The notes beneath the pieces are model-generated. The model did no database searches. It was not told where the DNA came from and saw only the letters and a program-made list of their open reading frames with translations. 6,189 bases of DNA from a virus, in the IMG/VR virus record IMGVR_UViG_3300045988_001100, positions 1 to 6,189 of that record, one strand, 5' to 3'. Below, in pieces: positions 1 through 6,189 of the stretch. The number at the start of each line of letters is the position of its first letter. Positions within the stretch are counted from its first letter, which is position 1. A program made the position numbers and the translations under genes.

Positions 1-55
1 ACCAACCTCCAATATAATGACAATGGTTTCCCATGTATTCAGGGGCTTTAATACC
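1..55. repeat. Terminal direct repeat, copy 1 (identical to 6135..6189); assembly overlap marking a circular 6,134-nt genome
   Basis: accaacctccaatataatgacaatggtttcccatgtattcaggggctttaatacc occurs at both window ends with 55/55 identity. The repeat lies inside an uninterrupted coding frame (VP1), which fits circular closure rather than a biological terminal repeat. Confidence 0.95.
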
Positions 56-2987: not shown

Positions 2988-3293
2988 TCAACGCTTATCT
3001 ATTACCTGTCGACGATTACGTGAACAGAATGAAACATGAATAAATGTCGGATATATAATAAGCTGGTCAAATGGCGAAACATTATCAGAAAAAAAATGAA
3101 TCTCTTCAAGCAACTTATTAAACGTAGTAGAACCAAAAGGCTTAATATCAACAGCTTCACCTACAAGATGCTGAGAATTCGGAGCACCATTGCAAGCTTT
3201 ATTCTGCTCAGGAGTACGTCTGGCACTAGTTACAGAAAAATGAACATTAGAATACAACAAGTACTCAAGAAAATGCATAAGAGTATAATTCAT
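2988..3293 (-). CDS. Peptidase M15-like (Peptidase_M15_3 / LAS-type zinc peptidase) small protein; putative peptidoglycan hydrolase
   Basis: The 101-aa ORF contains TSARRTPEQNKACNGAPNSQHLVGEAVDI, which matches the family signature SGYR-x4-N-x3-GG-x3-S-x-H-x2-G-x-A-x-D. It also has a C-terminal FIHVSF in place of the usual F-V-H-V-D. Putative zinc ligands are H42 (3168-3170), D49 (3147-3149) and H86 (3036-3038). No signal peptide. The start ATG overlaps the upstream micro-ORF stop (ATGA). Confidence 0.8.
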   Translation of the reverse strand: MNYTLMHFLEYLLYSNVHFSVTSARRTPEQNKACNGAPNSQHLVGEAVDIKPFGSTTFNKLLEEIHFFSDNVSPFDQLIIYPTFIHVSFCSRNRRQVIDKR

Positions 3294-3373
3294 AGTCCAA
3301 TAGCATTAAGAATGTAACCTAAAGCAGCAGAAACAGCGCCAATAACAATTTTCCAGATATTACTACTTTTCAT
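3290..3373 (-). CDS. 27-aa micro-ORF encoding a single transmembrane helix (MKSSNIWKIVIGAVSAALGYILNAIGL); holin-like / small membrane peptide candidate
   Basis: ATG at 3373. Its TGA stop overlaps the peptidase ATG (ATGA at 3290-3293). It has a charged N-terminus followed by a ~20-residue hydrophobic stretch. Both other sense frames contain stops across 3294-3362, so this is the only coding option for an otherwise empty 69-nt spacer. The upstream part of the 74-aa track ORF (3374-3514) looks like a +1-frame artefact of the 66-aa gene. Confidence 0.4.
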   Translation of the reverse strand: MKSSNIWKIVIGAVSAALGYILNAIGL

Positions 3374-3563
3374 TGTCTTGAGATTTAAAATAAACAAAAT
3401 CACTTTCTTCTTTAATCGAATCCACAATAATGATAAAGCCCAACGAAGACATTCGCTCAGAATAACTTCCAAGACCATCGAGAGAATTGACAATATAAGG
3501 CGGAACAACATCACAACCAGTAGATTTTCCTTTAACTGAAATAATAAATTTCTGCATAATCAT
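3363..3563 (-). CDS. Hypothetical protein, 66 aa (MIMQKFIISVKGKSTGCDVVPPYIVNSLDGLGSYSERMSSLGFIIIVDSIKEESDFVYFKSQDNEK)
   Basis: Globular-looking composition, in contrast to the Leu-rich overlapping frame. ATGs at 3563 and 3557; the 82-aa track version starts at a TTG (3611). TAG stop at 3363-3365. No family recognised by eye. Confidence 0.55.
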   Translation of the reverse strand: MIMQKFIISVKGKSTGCDVVPPYIVNSLDGLGSYSERMSSLGFIIIVDSIKEESDFVYFKSQDNEK

Positions 3564-3608
3564 AATCTTTTTTAATGTTAATAATACTGAGTTAGCTTCT
3601 ACAGAGGA

Positions 3609-3640
3609 CAAAGGAAGATATTATTTTTTATATATACAAG
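3609..3640 (-). promoter_or_regulatory. Candidate Bacteroidetes-type promoter for the small-ORF / peptidase / VP4 block
   Basis: The sense strand reads CTTG (3640-3637), then 20 nt of AT-rich spacer, then TTCCTTTG (3616-3609). This approximates the Bacteroides -33 TTTG / -7 TAnnTTTG consensus with one mismatch in each box, about 45 nt upstream of the ATG at 3563. Pattern match only. Confidence 0.25.
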
Positions 3641-3651
3641 ATTTCTACGGA

Positions 3652-3660
3652 TTTTTTTTT
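3652..3660. repeat. T9 (sense strand A9) homopolymer flanked by a TACGG direct repeat
   Basis: ctacgg-a-ttttttttt-ag-tacgg at 3645-3667. The tract is non-coding. Confidence 0.9.
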
Positions 3661-3706
3661 AGTACGGTCTTGTGTGAGTTCGACGTTTATGGACAAGAGA
3701 GGAGAG

Positions 3707-3729
3707 AAACTGAGAGGATAACTCAGTTT
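3707..3729 (-). terminator. Hairpin (8-bp stem AAACTGAG / CTCAGTTT, 7-nt loop) followed on the sense strand by a T/C-rich run; possible terminator of the VP1-VP3-VP2 transcript
   Basis: Perfect inverted repeat 3707-3714 / 3722-3729. The sense strand continues TTTCTCTCCTCTCTTG. The stem is AT-rich and the U-tract is imperfect. Confidence 0.3.
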
Positions 3730-3750
3730 TGCGTTCGCATCGAACTAGGG

Positions 3751-3757
3751 GCTTCGC
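3751..3757 (-). other. GCGAAGC heptamer on the sense (virion) strand: sequence of the hyperstable DNA mini-hairpin
   Basis: The + strand reads gcttcgc at 3751-3757, so the sense strand reads GCGAAGC. A 5-bp/3-nt-loop hairpin GTTCG-cat-CGAAC lies next to it at 3733-3745. Confidence 0.6.
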
Positions 3758-3796
3758 TTGAATAACAAAGTGGATGTATACAAGGTGTATAGGCAC

Positions 3797-3818
3797 GGCA
3801 GGTCAGGTAGAACCTGCC
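3797..3818 (-). other. Hairpin, 7-bp GC-rich stem GGCAGGT / ACCTGCC with 8-nt loop; alternative 5-bp CAGGT / ACCTG pairing within it
   Basis: Perfect inverted repeat 3797-3803 / 3812-3818. ACCTG is duplicated on the sense strand, which allows two registers. Confidence 0.65.
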
Positions 3819-3847
3819 TTTGCGCACCTACGTGCTAAAATACCGAA

Positions 3848-3878
3848 GCGGAACGCTTCTCTAAGGAAGTCGCTCCGC
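3848..3878 (-). other. Strongest hairpin of the region: 12-bp stem with one bulge, 6-nt loop; competes with a 6-bp triloop hairpin at 3845-3859
   Basis: On the sense strand GCGGAGCG-A-CTTC [CTTAGA] GAAG-CGTTCCGC pairs. One position is a G.T(U) wobble on the sense strand, which becomes an A.C mismatch on the + strand. The segment 3848-3859 can instead fold as GAAGCG-TTC-CGCTTC (3845-3859). Confidence 0.7.
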
Positions 3879-3904
3879 TCCATTTTATACCAGGCCTTAC
3901 GCAG

Positions 3905-3933
3905 GCGGCGGGTGTATATCGCTCAAGCGCCGC
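3905..3933 (-). other. Hairpin with 6-bp all-GC stem (GCGGCG / CGCCGC) and 17-nt loop carrying GATATACACC; alternative ATCGC / GCGAT stem at 3918-3936
   Basis: Inverted repeat 3905-3910 / 3928-3933. On the sense strand the loop reads CTTGAGCGATATACACC. Confidence 0.6.
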
Positions 3934-3955
3934 GATGGGCTTTTAGTCCTAAAGG

Positions 3956-5071
3956 TTATTTTCGACCAATACTATTGCCAATACCTTGAAAAATACGAGA
4001 GCCGTAATCTATAGCGTTACGCAATTCATAAGAATCAACATCCTTCTGCTTCTGTTTGGAAGACCATTTATAATAATCACGCAAAGCCTTATCTTTAGAA
4101 TACTCTATATTCTTCAATACATTCATATTCTTAGAATCCCAAAGAGAAGACAAACCACGAGCACGATTAGACTGGATATTAGCATAGATCAAAGAATCAG
4201 CGGTAGACTCAGCAATCTTATTGTTAATACGAATACCATTCGTTTCAGCGGCAGTTTTCACGGCCTGAGCCATCTGATTTTTATACTGAGCTTCAGAAAG
4301 AGCACCTTGGGCATATAGGTTAGCAAGAGTCTGACCTTTAATAAAGAGGTCGGCTTGTTGCTGTTCATCCAGATACTTATTCAAGACCTGTTGAGCCTGA
4401 GAATCTAAAAGAATCTGAGCTTCCTGGGCAGAAGTAAGACGACCAGCAAACTCCATATTCTTTAACTCCTGATACTCTTTAGATTGATCTAGGAGAGCGG
4501 AACGACGACCAGTAGAAGCATTCCAATAACCAGACTGACCAATACCGATATTACGATAATTCGTGTTACCAAGGATCTCCTGCATGCGATAAGGTGTAAG
4601 AACGGCATTCTGTTCGGCATTCATCATAGCAGCACGAGCCTGAGCCATAGAAGCAAGAGAGGTGCCGACATCAGAGAAATCAGGGCGGAAGGCTTGAAGA
4701 GAAGGCATACCAGCGGCTTGAGCAGCAGAACCTCCAGAAGCGGGGGACCTAGAAACACCAGCACCAGCGGAAGAACCAATAAACGGATTCAAACCACGAG
4801 CGACCATAGCATTGGGAGAATTGTAAGAATTATTCATACCCCACATCTTCTCTTGCCAATCACGCTGAATCTGAGCTTGCTCGGCATTAAACGCATTATT
4901 CTCACGATTAATGTCAATACTGGTCTGATTAGTCTTATTCTGCGAAGATGCGCCAATAGCATTACCTGCAAGTGAAGCGCCAGCAGCGATAATTCCTCCA
5001 AGAACAAGCGGAGCAATATGTTTTTCGGAGTGCCCCATTAAGGGGCTTTCTCCGATATCATAGAACCTCAT
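3956..5071 (-). CDS. VP2: Minor capsid / DNA pilot protein (microvirus VP2, functional analogue of phiX174 H)
   Basis: The 371-aa ORF has an N-terminal Gly/Ala-rich hydrophobic segment (PLVLGGIIAAGASLAGNAIGASS) and the block RDWQEKMWGMNNSYNSPNAMVARGLNPF, which resembles the conserved ...NSP.aqm.r...AGLNP region of VP2 proteins. It also has a long Gln/Ala-rich predicted helical region. The ATG at 5071 overlaps the upstream TGA (ATGA); an alternative Met lies at 5038. Confidence 0.85.
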   Translation of the reverse strand: MRFYDIGESPLMGHSEKHIAPLVLGGIIAAGASLAGNAIGASSQNKTNQTSIDINRENNAFNAEQAQIQRDWQEKMWGMNNSYNSPNAMVARGLNPFIGSSAGAGVSRSPASGGSAAQAAGMPSLQAFRPDFSDVGTSLASMAQARAAMMNAEQNAVLTPYRMQEILGNTNYRNIGIGQSGYWNASTGRRSALLDQSKEYQELKNMEFAGRLTSAQEAQILLDSQAQQVLNKYLDEQQQADLFIKGQTLANLYAQGALSEAQYKNQMAQAVKTAAETNGIRINNKIAESTADSLIYANIQSNRARGLSSLWDSKNMNVLKNIEYSKDKALRDYYKWSSKQKQKDVDSYELRNAIDYGSRIFQGIGNSIGRK

Positions 5072-5520: not shown

Positions 5521-6189
5521 TTAATAAGGTAAACCATTTCTGTCCAAATTCTGAACCGCATATACTTGGAAATTAACATTACACAACAGTTGGTCAAAAG
5601 CAACGGAACAATTCGTAGCGTCAATCTGCGGAACGAAAATAGAATTCAATTGCTGAGGACGAACTTTCATAGACTGATAAGACCAAGCGCCGGAACCAGT
5701 TAACACTTGGTAGCCATTCAAGGGGGCAGCCCAAGCTTGATACGCAGCACCATTACGGAAACCAGCGTGGACGGTATCAATATTAGATTTCCATTGCCAA
5801 TAACGGAGATTATATCCAAGAGCACCAGAGGTCTTAAGACCAGGATTATTTTGAAGATTCAAAGCAGGAACAACTTGCATACCAAGTTGATCGAATGCAG
5901 GTTGAGGGAAGTCAGATATAGCGGTTACGGTCAATTGAGGATTCTGGCCAGTAAGATTCCAATCCAGCATAGGGACAGCATGATAAACACACATAATAAC
6001 CTGATGTTCAGCACCACAATCATAAGTAATAGTATGACCGGAGTTACTAGAAACACCTTTACCGGCAATAGAAGCCTGCGAAGAATCAGTATCAAGGTTA
6101 GTATTAACTACCTCATTAATATTGATTACACTAGACCAACCTCCAATATAATGACAATGGTTTCCCATGTATTCAGGGGCTTTAATACC
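5521..6189 (-). CDS. VP1: Major capsid protein, C-terminal part of the same gene as 1..1132 (6135..6189 duplicates 1..55); whole gene 1,746 nt = 581 aa
   Basis: Track ORF 5521..6168 (MGNHCHYIGGWSSVININEVVNT...NLDRNGLPY, TAA at 5521-5523) is in phase with the 1..1132 frame once 6135 is equated with base 1: 1132 + 614 = 1746 nt, divisible by 3. The track's Met is internal residue 367, not a start. Confidence 0.95.
   Translation of the reverse strand, partial: GIKAPEYMGNHCHYIGGWSSVININEVVNTNLDTDSSQASIAGKGVSSNSGHTITYDCGAEHQVIMCVYHAVPMLDWNLTGQNPQLTVTAISDFPQPAFDQLGMQVVPALNLQNNPGLKTSGALGYNLRYWQWKSNIDTVHAGFRNGAAYQAWAAPLNGYQVLTGSGAWSYQSMKVRPQQLNSIFVPQIDATNCSVAFDQLLCNVNFQVYAVQNLDRNGLPY
6135..6189. repeat. 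Terminal direct repeat, copy 2 (identical to 1..55)
   Basis: Exact 55-nt match to the window start. 55 is a common maximal k-mer in de Bruijn assemblers, which is consistent with a circular contig overlap. Confidence 0.95.

What the first reader, a model, noticed from the sequence alone, without database searches (positions are those of the whole stretch)
3564..3955. About 390 nt of non-coding DNA (6% of a very compact genome) with a GC-rich, hairpin-dense core
Elsewhere the genes abut or overlap by 1-11 nt. Here there is a long ORF-free gap whose core is about 15-20 G+C percentage points richer than the blocks I counted elsewhere. It contains at least six stable inverted repeats (3707-3729, 3733-3745, 3751-3757, 3797-3818, 3848-3878, 3905-3933), several with alternative registers. 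In phiX174/G4-type phages, structured intergenic hairpins on the virion strand act as complementary-strand origins (primosome assembly site or primase recognition site). Alternatives are a structured ncRNA or leader controlling the downstream early genes, stacked terminators for the capsid operon, or a folded ssDNA attachment site.
Basis: partly seen in the sequence, partly recalled or inferred. Interest (0 to 1): 0.7.

Follow-up and report, generated by a model that had tools for sequence, protein, structure and literature searches.

The report
Folded replication-origin region of a microvirus
The one long gene-free stretch of this 6.1-kb gut phage genome is a strongly conserved, hairpin-forming DNA control region, most likely where copying of the single-stranded genome starts, and its core module occurs across a whole subfamily of Bacteroidetes-infecting microviruses yet I found no description of it.

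Summary
Window 3564-3955 is non-coding, its core is G+C-rich (51% against 40% for the genome), and it folds better than shuffles. Five of the six listed hairpins are backed by compensatory changes in more than 100 relatives.

All genes lie on the minus strand, and so does the folded strand. The gap has two modules.
- **3' module (3672-3769).** A Y-shaped fold: an 8-bp stem encloses a GNA mini-hairpin, a second hairpin and the single-stranded CTCTTGTCCATAAACG. A covariation model finds it once per genome, on the coding strand, in nearly all Alpavirinae tested, including the cultured Bacteroides fragilis phage phiHBP1. Their Rep proteins are only 27-43% identical to this one.
- **5' module (3770-3949).** Specific to this clade. 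It carries further hairpins and a terminator-like hairpin.

A Bacteroidetes-type promoter follows the fold. In most relatives a terminator precedes it.

DNA-type GNA triloops, rare G·T pairs and this position argue for DNA rather than RNA. phiX174 is nicked at CTTG|A, and four gokushoviruses show CTTG in the loop of a major intergenic hairpin. I therefore read the 3' module as the viral-strand origin. The 5' module would be a complementary-strand priming signal plus terminator.

The parts
3564..3955 (-). Whole gene-free control region between the VP2 (pilot protein) stop and the next gene.
   Evidence: ORF lists. No frame stays open in 116 relatives. The region is conserved at 76-83% identity in 34 GenBank microvirus records whose genomes are 70-80% identical overall.
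3770..3949 (-). 5' module: a clade-specific cluster of short hairpins, 54% G+C. Candidate complementary-strand priming signal plus terminator.
   Evidence: Present in about 110 IMG/VR contigs and 34 GenBank records. In close relatives L260, L270, L273 and L279 a plain intrinsic terminator stands in its place. nhmmer does not find it in distant Alpavirinae.
3918..3936 (-). Hairpin Ha: ATCGC, a 9-nt loop, GCGAT. The invariant ATATACACCCGCC follows it.
   Evidence: The pair at core positions 30:42 reads GC 84, AU 6, CG 4, and no cell is unpaired.
3894..3906 (-). Hairpin Hb: GCCT, loop GCGTA, AGGC.
   Evidence: The closing pair reads CG 92 and UA 4, with no mismatch.
3872..3878 (-). GCGGAGC mini-hairpin motif (a C[GNA]G triloop).
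   Evidence: Invariant except at the N position, which is G or A.
3835..3859 (-). Terminator-like hairpin GAAGCG-TTC-CGCTTC followed by GGTATTTTAG.
   Evidence: The consensus scan flags it. The pair at 105:117 covaries perfectly: GC 64 and AT 27. In relative L255 the tail is a longer T run.
3824..3835 (-). Hairpin Hd: GCAC, loop GTAG, GTGC.
   Evidence: The pair reads AU 71 and GC 25, with no mismatch. Many relatives have a GGA triloop here.
3797..3818 (-). Hairpin He: GGCAGGT, an 8-nt loop, ACCTGCC.
   Evidence: Two stem variants, GGCAGG/CCTGCC and GGCAAG/CTTGCC, keep the pairing.
3777..3791 (-). Optional hairpin Hf: TATAC, loop ACCTT, GTATA. It overlaps two of the three TATACAYC repeats; the third is at 3911-3918.
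   Evidence: Deleted in about 16 of 96 relatives. The same motif recurs after hairpins in distant clades.
3672..3769 (-). 3' module: a Y-shaped element shared across the subfamily. Candidate viral-strand (+) origin.
   Evidence: Model R1 hits all 7 more distant genomes tried. Five are significant; the two weakest have E = 0.07 and 0.15. It also hits 36 of 41 further Alpavirinae contigs. There is one hit per genome, always on the Rep-coding strand. In the alignment of 56 hits, 99.9% of cells pair and 18 of 20 pairs show compensatory change.
3751..3757 (-). Mini-hairpin Hg, GCGAAGC.
   Evidence: Has a GNA triloop in 50 of 56 subfamily-wide sequences.
3677..3746 (-). Closing stem Hh (3739-3746 pairs with 3677-3684). 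It encloses Hi, Hj and the single-stranded motif.
   Evidence: Six of 8 pairs show changes on both sides across the subfamily, and 100% of cells pair.
3731..3738 (-). Mini-hairpin Hi. It reads GCGAACGC here and mostly GCGAAGC or CCGAAGG in relatives.
   Evidence: C[GNA]G in 48 of 56 subfamily-wide sequences and in 111 of 132 close relatives.
3708..3728 (-). Hairpin Hj: AACTGAG, loop TTATCCT, CTCAGTT.
   Evidence: All 8 pairs covary across the subfamily. The loop begins with TTA or TTTA.
3684..3699 (-). Single-stranded conserved motif CTCTTGTCCATAAACG inside the multiloop. Candidate Rep nick and recognition site (CTTG|TC).
   Evidence: CTTGTC occurs in 49 of 56 subfamily-wide sequences and CTCGTC in 5. 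phiX174 is nicked at CTTG|A. CTTG also lies in the loop of a major intergenic hairpin in Chp2, phiMH2K, SpV4 and Chp1.
3652..3660 (-). A9 run between the fold and the promoter. Possibly an UP-element-like tract.
   Evidence: An A run sits at this place in close and distant relatives. The functional reading is inference.
3609..3641 (-). Bacteroidetes-type promoter. It is degenerate here: TCTTG-N20-TTCCTTTG. The canonical form is TTTG-N17-22-TAnnTTTG.
   Evidence: The canonical motif starts 31-44 nt after the fold in 71 of 105 relatives. In 59 of those contigs it is the only such motif on the coding strand. The window itself has no exact match.
3558..3608 (-). Leader of the downstream operon, with the invariant TTATTAAC at 3577-3584.
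   Evidence: Alignment A1. Its resemblance to the phiX174 origin 18-mer has 5 mismatches and is no better than chance: 123 of 300 shuffles do as well.

Best explanation
The gap is the replication and transcription control region of an Alpavirinae microvirus. Its structured core works as DNA, folded in the single-stranded virion-sense strand, which is the window's minus strand.

**Layout, in coding-strand order:** VP2 stop, 5' hairpin cluster containing a terminator-like hairpin, 3' Y-shaped module, A run, the main Bacteroidetes-type promoter, leader, then the operon of small genes, peptidase and Rep.

**Proposed mechanism (inferred, not shown).**
- The 3' module presents the single-stranded CTCTTGTCC inside a loop closed by an 8-bp stem and braced by two very stable GNA mini-hairpins. 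The HUH Rep protein (VP4) nicks there, at or next to CTTG, to start and to end rolling-circle synthesis of the viral strand. phiX174 protein A does the same at CAACTTG|A.
- The 5' cluster lies just upstream, so it is the last part to be displaced. It keeps hairpins free of single-strand-binding protein. These hairpins serve as the host priming signal for complementary-strand synthesis.
- One of the 5' hairpins also ends the genome-length transcript.

This arrangement parallels the intergenic region of filamentous phages, which runs terminator, (-) origin, (+) origin, promoter.

**Shown here:** conservation, folding, strand, modularity and position. **Inferred:** which protein acts on which module.
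For: 1. **It is real and under selection.** The core has 83% mean column identity in 96 distinct relatives whose Rep proteins are only 59-97% identical to this one. The revised 11-helix model gives 98.9% paired cells, 16 pairs with compensatory change and 218 such cells. None of 500 shuffles matches this, and slid controls give 22-48% pairing.
2. **The 3' module spans the subfamily.** R1 scores 75.8 bits in mar56, 50.7 in Dulem virus 257, 43.2 in Dulem virus 236, 42.8 in B. fragilis phage phiHBP1 and 27.6 in mar63. It hits 36 of 41 further contigs. Rep identity to the window in these clades is 27-43%. In the 56-hit alignment, 99.9% of cells pair and 18 of 20 pairs are compensatory.
3. **DNA rather than RNA.**
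   - X-C-G-N-A-G-X' mini-hairpins occur at 10.6 per kb inside the element. The rest of the coding strand has 0.59 per kb, and the opposite strand has 0.04 per element.
   - Caps are GNA triloops in 111 of 132 cases against 13 GNNA. These are the extraordinarily stable DNA mini-hairpins found at the G4, St-1 and alpha3 primase sites and in ssiA (PMC13037366).
   - G·T cells number 25 of 1114, and 21 of them are at one terminal pair.
   - No Rfam match lies in the gap.
4. **It lies outside the main transcript.** The promoter starts 31-44 nt downstream in 71 of 105 genomes. A strong hairpin plus T run lies within 480 nt upstream of the 3' module in 32 of 46 genomes. Thirty-five of about 54 such sites genome-wide fall in that 500-nt interval. 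In L260 the terminator sits directly before the 3' module.
5. **(+) origin reading of the 3' module.** CTTGTC is nearly invariant and single-stranded. The phiX174 record places the viral-strand origin at 4306, within CCCCCAACTTG|ATA. In four of four gokushoviruses, a top-two intergenic hairpin on the coding strand has CTTG in its loop:
   - Chp2: TCTACTTGAT
   - phiMH2K: CCCTACTTGTTG
   - SpV4: ATTACTTGTTATA
   - Chp1: CCTCTTGGCT

   In phiMH2K a mini-hairpin precedes the hairpin and ACTCACAG follows it, as in Alpavirinae.
6. **The pattern of conservation fits.** The module shared by all clades behaves like the phiX174/G4/alpha3 (+) origin. The labile 5' module behaves like their unrelated (-) origins; that comparison rests on established knowledge. 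In distant clades the non-homologous 300 nt upstream are again rich in mini-hairpins: 5.0 per kb against 0.41.
Against: - Nothing here is experimental.
- CTTG is only four bases, and 15% of close relatives have CTCG.
- R1 finds no significant match in gokushoviruses, G4, phiX174 or the M13 intergenic region. The best hit is 9.2 bits at E = 1.2, although it falls exactly on the phiMH2K hairpin. Homology beyond Alpavirinae is therefore a pattern-level argument.
- The 8-bp closing stem spans 55-65 nt. It would not extrude easily from double-stranded replicative form, which suits a purely single-stranded role such as a (-) origin.
- Conservation of about 35 nt across very divergent Reps could equally reflect recognition by a conserved host protein.
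- GNA mini-hairpins are documented at complementary-strand priming sites, not at (+) origins, and two of them sit inside the 3' module.
- Close relatives replace the 5' module with a plain terminator, so any priming role is dispensable or is taken over by other sequence.
- In the window's own clade the terminator-like hairpin is weak. Ha and Hb lie upstream of it, so at least part of the element is transcribed.
Confidence: 0.5

Rival explanations
1. The whole element, including the 3' module, is a complementary-strand (-) origin. It would be a folded single-stranded DNA signal on the virion strand. Bacteroidetes primase, PriA or RNA polymerase would recognise it and start the primer near the pyrimidine-rich CTTG tract, as DnaG does at CCCTACTG next to hairpin I of G4.
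For: - Mini-hairpins of the G4/ssiA type are 18-fold enriched and strand-specific (PMC13037366).
- In G4, a hairpin containing GCGAAAGC is followed by CCCTACTG, and the primer template ends there. This layout resembles Hi and Hj followed by CTCTTG.
- The long-range stem Hh and the Y shape are natural in single-stranded DNA and awkward in duplex DNA.
- Conservation across Reps of 27-43% identity fits recognition by a conserved host factor.
Against: - Known microvirus (-) origins are evolutionarily labile. phiX174 and G4 use unrelated ones (established knowledge). Yet this module is the most conserved non-coding sequence of the subfamily.
- Under this reading no other candidate for the obligatory (+) origin was seen.
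- The CTTG-in-loop pattern extends to gokushoviruses of four unrelated host groups. That argues for the phage Rep rather than a host primase.
- R1 finds nothing in G4.
Confidence: 0.22
2. The fold acts as RNA. It would be a structured 3' UTR that stabilises or processes the genome-length mRNA, or a separate non-coding RNA.
For: - The RNA fold z-score is -4.21.
- Covariation cannot tell RNA from virion-sense DNA, because both have the same polarity.
- In the window's clade the fold starts directly after the VP2 stop, with only a weak terminator-like hairpin inside it. Part of it must therefore be transcribed.
- Long invariant unpaired stretches are typical of complex RNAs.
Against: - No Rfam family reaches even E = 10 in the gap.
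- Caps are GNA triloops, not GNRA or UNCG tetraloops.
- G·U pairs are almost absent and are no commoner than other mismatches.
- In most relatives a strong terminator lies upstream of the 3' module and the only canonical promoter lies downstream of it.
- No promoter was seen upstream of the fold.
Confidence: 0.12
3. The region is only transcription punctuation: stacked terminators for the capsid operon plus upstream promoter elements.
For: - A terminator-like hairpin with a covarying stem lies at 3845-3859.
- Close relatives have a plain terminator in place of the 5' module.
- An A run and a promoter follow directly.
Against: - A terminator needs one hairpin, not about ten.
- The 3' module has no T run. 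It lies downstream of the terminator in most genomes, and it is conserved in sequence as well as in pairing across the subfamily.
Confidence: 0.06
4. The region is an attachment site for lysogeny. It would be a dif-like site, possibly formed by folded single-stranded DNA as in CTXphi, used by host XerC/D.
For: - Bacteroidetes microvirus proviruses BMV1-7 are flanked by dif-like sites.
- Their att site lies upstream of the Rep gene, in the same intergenic position as this gap.
- BMV4-6 carry a second dif-like sequence (PMC3091885).
Against: - The window has no match to the bacterial dif consensus with up to 3 mismatches.
- The fold contains no 28-bp duplex.
- Every contig carrying the element that I sampled is a free microvirus genome of about 6 kb or an assembly concatemer. 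None is integrated.
- The element is present in phiHBP1, for which lysogeny was ruled out experimentally (PMC13064476).
- The provirus junctions themselves could not be examined.
Confidence: 0.04

Closest known systems
phiX174-type viral-strand (+) origin (protein A nick site CAACTTG|ATATTAATAAC)
   Same: Same virus family and a homologous HUH Rep. Both have a C-rich run followed by CTTG on the virion-sense strand, with A/T-rich sequence ending in AAC after it.
   Different: The phiX174 origin lies inside gene A and needs no hairpin. Here the motif is intergenic and sits in the multiloop of a Y-shaped fold. Only CTTG is shared. The best 18-mer match in the window has 5 mismatches and is no better than chance.
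G4 / St-1 / alpha3 primase-dependent complementary-strand origins
   Same: Intergenic, on the virion strand, with several hairpins including a GCGNAGC or GCGNNAGC DNA mini-hairpin. A pyrimidine-rich tract ending in (C)TG follows.
   Different: No sequence or structure homology: R1 gives E > 3 in G4. The element is about twice as long. The host is Bacteroidetes, and its primase start preference is unknown. The most conserved module looks more like a (+) origin.
Intergenic region of filamentous phages (M13/f1)
   Same: Same order of parts on the viral strand: terminator, hairpins of the (-) origin, hairpins of the (+) origin, then the promoter of the Rep gene. The window's Rep matches Pfam PF23343, the 'REP_ORF2-G2P' family, which includes the filamentous-phage gene II protein.
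   Different: No significant sequence similarity: the local alignment score equals the shuffle mean, and R1 gives E = 3.3. No packaging hairpin is expected in a microvirus.
Single-strand origins of rolling-circle plasmids (ssoA, ssoU) and RSF1010 ssiA/ssiB
   Same: Strand-specific, highly folded non-coding DNA of 100-300 nt located just upstream of the nick site. ssiA contains a CCGAAGG mini-hairpin, and CCGAAGG is the commonest form of Hi across the subfamily.
   Different: No match in 72,556 plasmid records. The conserved ssoA boxes were not tested.
Stem-loop origins of CRESS-DNA viruses and gokushovirus intergenic hairpins
   Same: A nick motif for an HUH Rep displayed in a loop closed by a covarying stem. 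Gokushovirus hairpin loops carry CTACTTG, TTACTTG or CCTCTTG.
   Different: Those are simple hairpins. In Alpavirinae the loop has grown into a three-way junction with two internal hairpins. The nick site has not been mapped experimentally in gokushoviruses either, as far as the library I searched shows.

Membership tests
phiX174-type viral-strand origin | 30-nt consensus CAACTTGATATTAATAACACTATAGACCAC | tested here: not met
   The best 18-mer match has 5 mismatches, at window 3594. In 123 of 300 shuffles the match is at least as good. Only the CTTG core is shared with the 3' module.
phiX174-type viral-strand origin | Cleavage by the phage HUH Rep after CTTG on the virion-sense strand | not testable with these tools
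   Needs nick mapping or in vitro cleavage with VP4.
G4-type primase-dependent complementary-strand origin | Intergenic hairpins on the virion strand that include a GCGNAGC or GCGNNAGC mini-hairpin | tested here: met
   Three to four such motifs per element, 18-fold enriched and strand-specific.
G4-type primase-dependent complementary-strand origin | Sequence and structure homology to the G4, St-1 or alpha3 origin | tested here: not met
   R1 on the G4 genome: best hit 6.8 bits, E = 4.9, and not at the origin.
G4-type primase-dependent complementary-strand origin | Primer synthesis by host primase on SSB-coated virion DNA starting at the element | not testable with these tools
   Biochemical assay.
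Rolling-circle plasmid single-strand origins (ssoA and others) | Homology to known sso sequences on plasmids | tested here: not met
   blastn with 11-nt words against PLSDB found no match at E <= 1.
Rolling-circle plasmid single-strand origins (ssoA and others) | Conserved RSB and CS-6 boxes | not tested
   I could not recall the exact consensus reliably.
Xer/dif-type attachment site (CTXphi, gokushovirus and BMV proviruses) | A 28-nt dif-like site made of an XerC arm, a spacer and an XerD arm | tested here: not met
   The bacterial dif consensus with up to 3 mismatches gives 0 matches in the window. A Bacteroidetes-specific consensus was not available.
Xer/dif-type attachment site (CTXphi, gokushovirus and BMV proviruses) | Provirus junctions fall inside the element | tested here: inconclusive
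   No integrated copy was found among the contigs sampled. The genome scan returned only chance 17-mer hits.
Any Rfam RNA family | Covariance-model match | tested here: not met
   cmscan at E <= 10 gave no match in 3564-3955 on either strand. No tRNA or tmRNA was found.
Intrinsic terminator | G+C-rich hairpin directly followed by a T run on the coding strand | tested here: met
   Site 3859-3845 with tail GGTATTTTAG, and the stem covaries. It is weak and does not pass the stricter test of dG <= -12 with at least 6 T in 9. It accounts for only about 25 nt of the element.

The most novel reading that the evidence does not exclude
The fold is also, or instead, a functional RNA: a structured non-coding RNA of about 280 nt, or a 3'-end element, made by a 6-kb single-stranded DNA phage. 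No such RNA is known for any microvirus. Its Y-shaped 3' module would then be a new RNA class shared by the dominant gut microviruses.
Probability: 0.1. Interest if true: 0.8.

Novelty: new variant of a known kind. Interest (0 to 1): 0.55.

Why it matters
- **An open gap in phage biology.** Alpavirinae are among the commonest phages of the human and animal gut. In the library I could search, no replication origin is described for any microvirus outside the phiX174/G4 group.
- **It makes the question testable.** The work yields a defined module of about 95 nt with a candidate nick motif, a covariation model that finds it, and its presence in phiHBP1, the first cultured Bacteroides microvirus. 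The origin question can now go to the bench.
- **Practical uses.**
  - It could supply origins for small Bacteroides replicons or phagemids.
  - It gives a non-coding marker for recognising and orienting Alpavirinae genomes.
  - It flags 'hypothetical protein' calls laid over the element in GenBank records as probably spurious.
- **A family-wide hypothesis.** The CTTG-in-loop pattern in gokushoviruses suggests one nick signal for the whole family Microviridae.
- **A natural case of DNA mini-hairpins.** The dense, strand-specific use of GNA mini-hairpins shows DNA-specific folding motifs under selection.

Tried and rejected
1. **Rfam and ARAGORN.** Nothing in the gap.
2. **Protein-coding reading.** No frame is conserved.
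3. **My first model of a long hairpin Hc (core 82-118).** Covariation at 105:117 supports the local hairpin 104-118 instead.
4. **Using G·T wobbles to assign the folded strand.** Most apparent wobbles came from the wrong Hc model or from misalignment of the two He variants. The strand is assigned from the mini-hairpin asymmetry instead.
5. **Genome-contig scan with a 17-mer.** It returned 120 chance matches with no microvirus genes, so the scan was wasted.
6. **Large IMG/VR contigs.**
   - Three matched the 17-mer only by chance: L031, L047 and L049.
   - The other oversized contigs carrying the element are assembly concatemers of about 6-kb genomes.
   - Thirty-three further large contigs matched a looser pattern, but R1 finds nothing in them.
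7. **Similarity of CTCTTGTCCATAAAC to the M13 gene II binding core.** The alignment score equals the shuffle mean.
8. **Similarity of the leader TAACTCAGTATTATTAAC to the phiX174 origin.** Not above chance.
9. **dif consensus.** No match.
10. **Plasmid database.** No match.
11. **Shared k-mers across the subfamily as a search for another origin candidate.** Uninformative, because conserved protein motifs dominate the result.
12. **Literature searches for a prior description.** None found. The phiMH2K paper was not held.
Full report
**Context.** The window is a complete circular microvirus genome. Bases 1-55 repeat 6135-6189, so the true length is 6134 nt. All genes are on the minus strand:
- Rep/VP4 at 2991-1153 (Pfam PF23343);
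- VP1, running across the window junction;
- a 146-aa protein;
- the pilot protein VP2 at 5071-3956;
- two small ORFs;
- an M15_3 peptidase at 3293-2988.

The gene order, with the peptidase between VP2 and VP4, matches Alpavirinae described from human gut (PMC3394797). The closest GenBank records are lemur, dog and human 'Dulem virus' and Microviridae genomes at 70-80% identity.

**The observation.** The gap 3564-3955 is real, non-coding and structured.
- No frame stays open across 116 homologous cores.
- The core 3672-3949 is 51.1% G+C against 40.4% for the genome. The remaining 108 nt of the gap are only 25%.
- Folding energies beat dinucleotide shuffles. As DNA, z = -3.82 on the minus strand and -2.18 on the plus strand. 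As RNA, z = -4.21 on the minus strand. The whole gap gives -3.22 and -1.96.
- Rfam at E <= 10 and ARAGORN find nothing in the gap.

**Conservation and structure.**
- The gap matches 34 GenBank records at 76-83% identity. That is at least as high as the coding regions.
- An invariant 17-mer retrieves 112 IMG/VR stretches. Almost all are microvirus contigs of about 6 kb; three are chance matches and seven are concatemers.
- Ninety-six distinct cores align with 83% mean column identity, although their Rep proteins are only 59-97% identical to the window's.
- A hand-built model of 11 helices, revised once, gives 98.9% paired cells. Sixteen pairs carry changes on both sides, in 218 cells. None of 500 shuffles matches this, and slid controls give 22-48% pairing.

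**Two modules.** Some close relatives (L260, L270, L273, L279) keep only the last ~100 nt of the core. In place of the rest they have a classical terminator, a 17-bp hairpin plus a T run.

I built a covariation model of this 3' module, R1, from 65 sequences. R1 finds one copy, always on the Rep-coding strand, in more distant Alpavirinae whose Reps are only 27-43% identical to the window's:

| Genome | Score (bits) | Note |
|---|---|---|
| mar56 | 75.8 | |
| Dulem virus 257 | 50.7 | |
| Dulem virus 236 | 43.2 | |
| B. fragilis phage phiHBP1 | 42.8 | cultured phage |
| mar63 | 27.6 | |
| Dulem virus 263 | 17.7 | E = 0.07, borderline |
| Dulem virus 245 | 16.2 | E = 0.15, borderline |

R1 also hits 36 of 41 further contigs. 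In the alignment of 56 hits, 99.9% of cells pair and 18 of 20 pairs show compensatory change. The covariation score is 0.661 against 0.186 for shuffles. This alignment is fitted to the model, which favours pairing.

The fold is a Y:
- a mini-hairpin GCGAAGC;
- an 8-bp stem enclosing a second mini-hairpin (mostly CCGAAGG or GCGAAGC), a 7-8-bp hairpin whose loop begins TTA, and a single-stranded pyrimidine tract ending in CTTGTC-Y-ATA-A-CG;
- then (A)CTCACA(C/G).

nhmmer does not detect the 5' module (window 3770-3949) outside the window's clade. Even so, the corresponding 300 nt in other clades are again rich in mini-hairpins: 5.0 per kb against 0.41 elsewhere. They also repeat the TATACACC motif after hairpins.

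**DNA or RNA.** In Microviridae the virion strand has the sense of the mRNA (established knowledge). Covariation therefore cannot separate the two. Four other observations favour DNA.
1. The motif X-C-G-N-A-G-X' occurs 3.1 times per element, or 10.6 per kb. The rest of the coding strand has 0.59 per kb, and the opposite strand has 0.04 per element. The N position varies while the rest is fixed. This is the d(GCGNAGC) mini-hairpin, extraordinarily stable as DNA and poorly bound by SSB. It is found at the primase site of the G4, St-1 and alpha3 complementary-strand origins and in ssiA of RSF1010 (PMC13037366).
2. Caps are three-base GNA loops in 111 of 132 close relatives and 48 of 56 subfamily-wide sequences. 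The RNA-typical GNRA loops are a minority.
3. G·T pairs are almost absent: 25 of 1114 cells, 21 of them at one terminal pair. They are no commoner than other mismatches. From general knowledge, G·U is usually much commoner in RNA families.
4. The fold lies outside the main transcription unit. A canonical Bacteroidetes promoter (TTTG-N17-22-TAnnTTTG) starts 31-44 nt after it in 71 of 105 genomes and is usually the only one on the coding strand. Strong hairpin-plus-T-run terminators cluster in the 500 nt before the 3' module: 35 of about 54 sites genome-wide, and 32 of 46 genomes have one there.

In the window itself the promoter is degenerate. The only terminator-like site is the covarying hairpin 3845-3859 followed by GGTATTTTAG. 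The first ~100 nt of the fold are therefore probably transcribed as a 3' UTR.

**Which origin.** Known microvirus (-) origins are labile, whereas phiX174, G4 and alpha3 share one (+) origin (established knowledge). The subfamily-wide 3' module behaves like a (+) origin, and the clade-specific 5' module behaves like a (-) origin.

The phiX174 record places the viral-strand origin at 4306, in CCCCCAACTTG|ATATT. I checked four gokushoviruses. In each, one of the two strongest coding-strand hairpins is intergenic and has CTTG in its loop:

| Phage | Stem | Loop |
|---|---|---|
| Chp2 | 14 bp | TCTACTTGAT |
| phiMH2K | 11 bp | GGACCCTACTTGTTGTAA |
| SpV4 | 10 bp | ATTACTTGTTATA |
| Chp1 | 9 bp | CCTCTTGGCT |

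In phiMH2K a mini-hairpin ACGCAGT precedes the hairpin and ACTCACAG follows it, as in Alpavirinae. R1's best hit in these genomes, not significant at 9.2 bits and E = 1.2, falls exactly on that hairpin.

I therefore read the single-stranded CTCTTGTCC at 3684-3699 as the probable Rep nick and recognition site. I read the 5' hairpin cluster as the probable priming signal for the complementary strand, combined with a terminator. The order terminator, (-) origin, (+) origin, promoter parallels the filamentous-phage intergenic region. There is no significant sequence similarity to M13.

**Caveats and rivals.**
- CTTG is short, and 15% of close relatives have CTCG.
- The long-range stem suits single-stranded DNA better than a supercoiled duplex.
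- Mini-hairpins are documented at priming sites, not at (+) origins.
- The reading that the whole element is a (-) origin therefore stays alive (about 0.2).
- An RNA role is not excluded (about 0.1).
- A dif-type attachment site is unlikely. There is no dif match and no integrated copy in what I sampled. The element is also present in phiHBP1, which does not lysogenise (PMC13064476). However, Bacteroidetes microvirus proviruses do carry their att site in this same intergenic position (PMC3091885), and I could not inspect their junctions.
- The element is not a member, by homology, of the G4, phiX174, M13 or plasmid sso families.

**Novelty.** Six searches of the held literature found no description of this element, nor of any origin for Alpavirinae or Gokushovirinae. 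It is best filed as a new variant of a known kind, a replication-origin region of a single-stranded DNA phage. Its architecture is distinctive, and a cultured host-phage pair is available to test it.

Noticed in passing
window 1-55 and 6135-6189: An exact 55-nt terminal direct repeat, which is the assembly overlap of a circular genome. The true length is 6134 nt, and VP1 reads through the junction only once the repeat is removed.
   Followed up: yes
window 3609-3641 (-); relatives L014-L125: A Bacteroidetes-type promoter (TTTG-N17-22-TAnnTTTG) sits 31-44 nt after the fold in 71 of 105 relatives. It is usually the only such motif on the coding strand. This points to a Bacteroidetes host and to one genome-length transcription unit. 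The window's own copy is degenerate (TCTTG ... TTCCTTTG).
   Followed up: partly
L004:358-684 (Dulem virus 242, XCD03858.1); L246:2326-2736 (phiHBP1, CNECMEOK_00004); L002:694-990 (OP549867, UYL88412.1); L006 and L008:260-412: Several GenBank records annotate 'hypothetical protein' genes on top of, or running into, the conserved fold. No frame is conserved across relatives, so these calls are probably spurious.
   Followed up: partly
window 3911-3918, 3784-3791, 3773-3780 (-); L339, L330, L351 upstream regions: The direct repeat TATACAYC occurs three times in the 5' module, each time just after or inside a hairpin. TATACACC recurs after hairpins in distant clades whose upstream regions are otherwise not alignable. 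It could be a protein-binding iteron.
   Followed up: partly
L471:2904-2941, L472:3296-3335, L473:512-544, L474:2750-2777: In Chp2, phiMH2K, SpV4 and Chp1, one of the two strongest coding-strand hairpins is intergenic and carries CTTG in its loop. This suggests a family-wide Rep nick signal related to phiX174 CAACTTG|A.
   Followed up: partly
L260:2940-2979, L270, L273, L279, L255: The intergenic region is modular. Close relatives swap the 180-nt 5' hairpin cluster for a plain intrinsic terminator followed by TTTTTCCGAAAGTATCG. L255 is an intermediate that keeps only the terminator-like hairpin.
   Followed up: partly
window 3290-3514 and 3363-3563 (-): Two small ORFs of 74 and 66 aa overlap by about 150 nt in different frames. 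Both give tblastn matches in relatives. GenBank records annotate only the 65-aa one, and which of them is expressed is unclear.
   Followed up: no
window 2988-3293 (-): A 101-aa M15_3 peptidase gene lies between the small ORFs and Rep. It is the horizontally acquired candidate endolysin described for some Alpavirinae (PMC3394797).
   Followed up: partly
window 3577-3584 (-) and alignment A1: An invariant TTATTAAC lies in the leader about 20 nt upstream of the start codon. Its likeness to the A/T-rich part of the phiX174 origin is not above chance, and why it is invariant is unexplained.
   Followed up: partly
window 3652-3660 (-); same place in L246, L326, L329, L331: A run of 7-11 A on the coding strand lies between the fold and the promoter in close and distant relatives. 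It may be an UP-element-like tract.
   Followed up: no
L025, L029, L035, L045, L063, L070, L125: Several IMG/VR 'genomes' of 6.9-9.4 kb are head-to-tail or chimeric concatemers of about 6-kb microviruses. They sometimes join two different variants, which suggests assembly artefacts or co-infecting recombinants.
   Followed up: no
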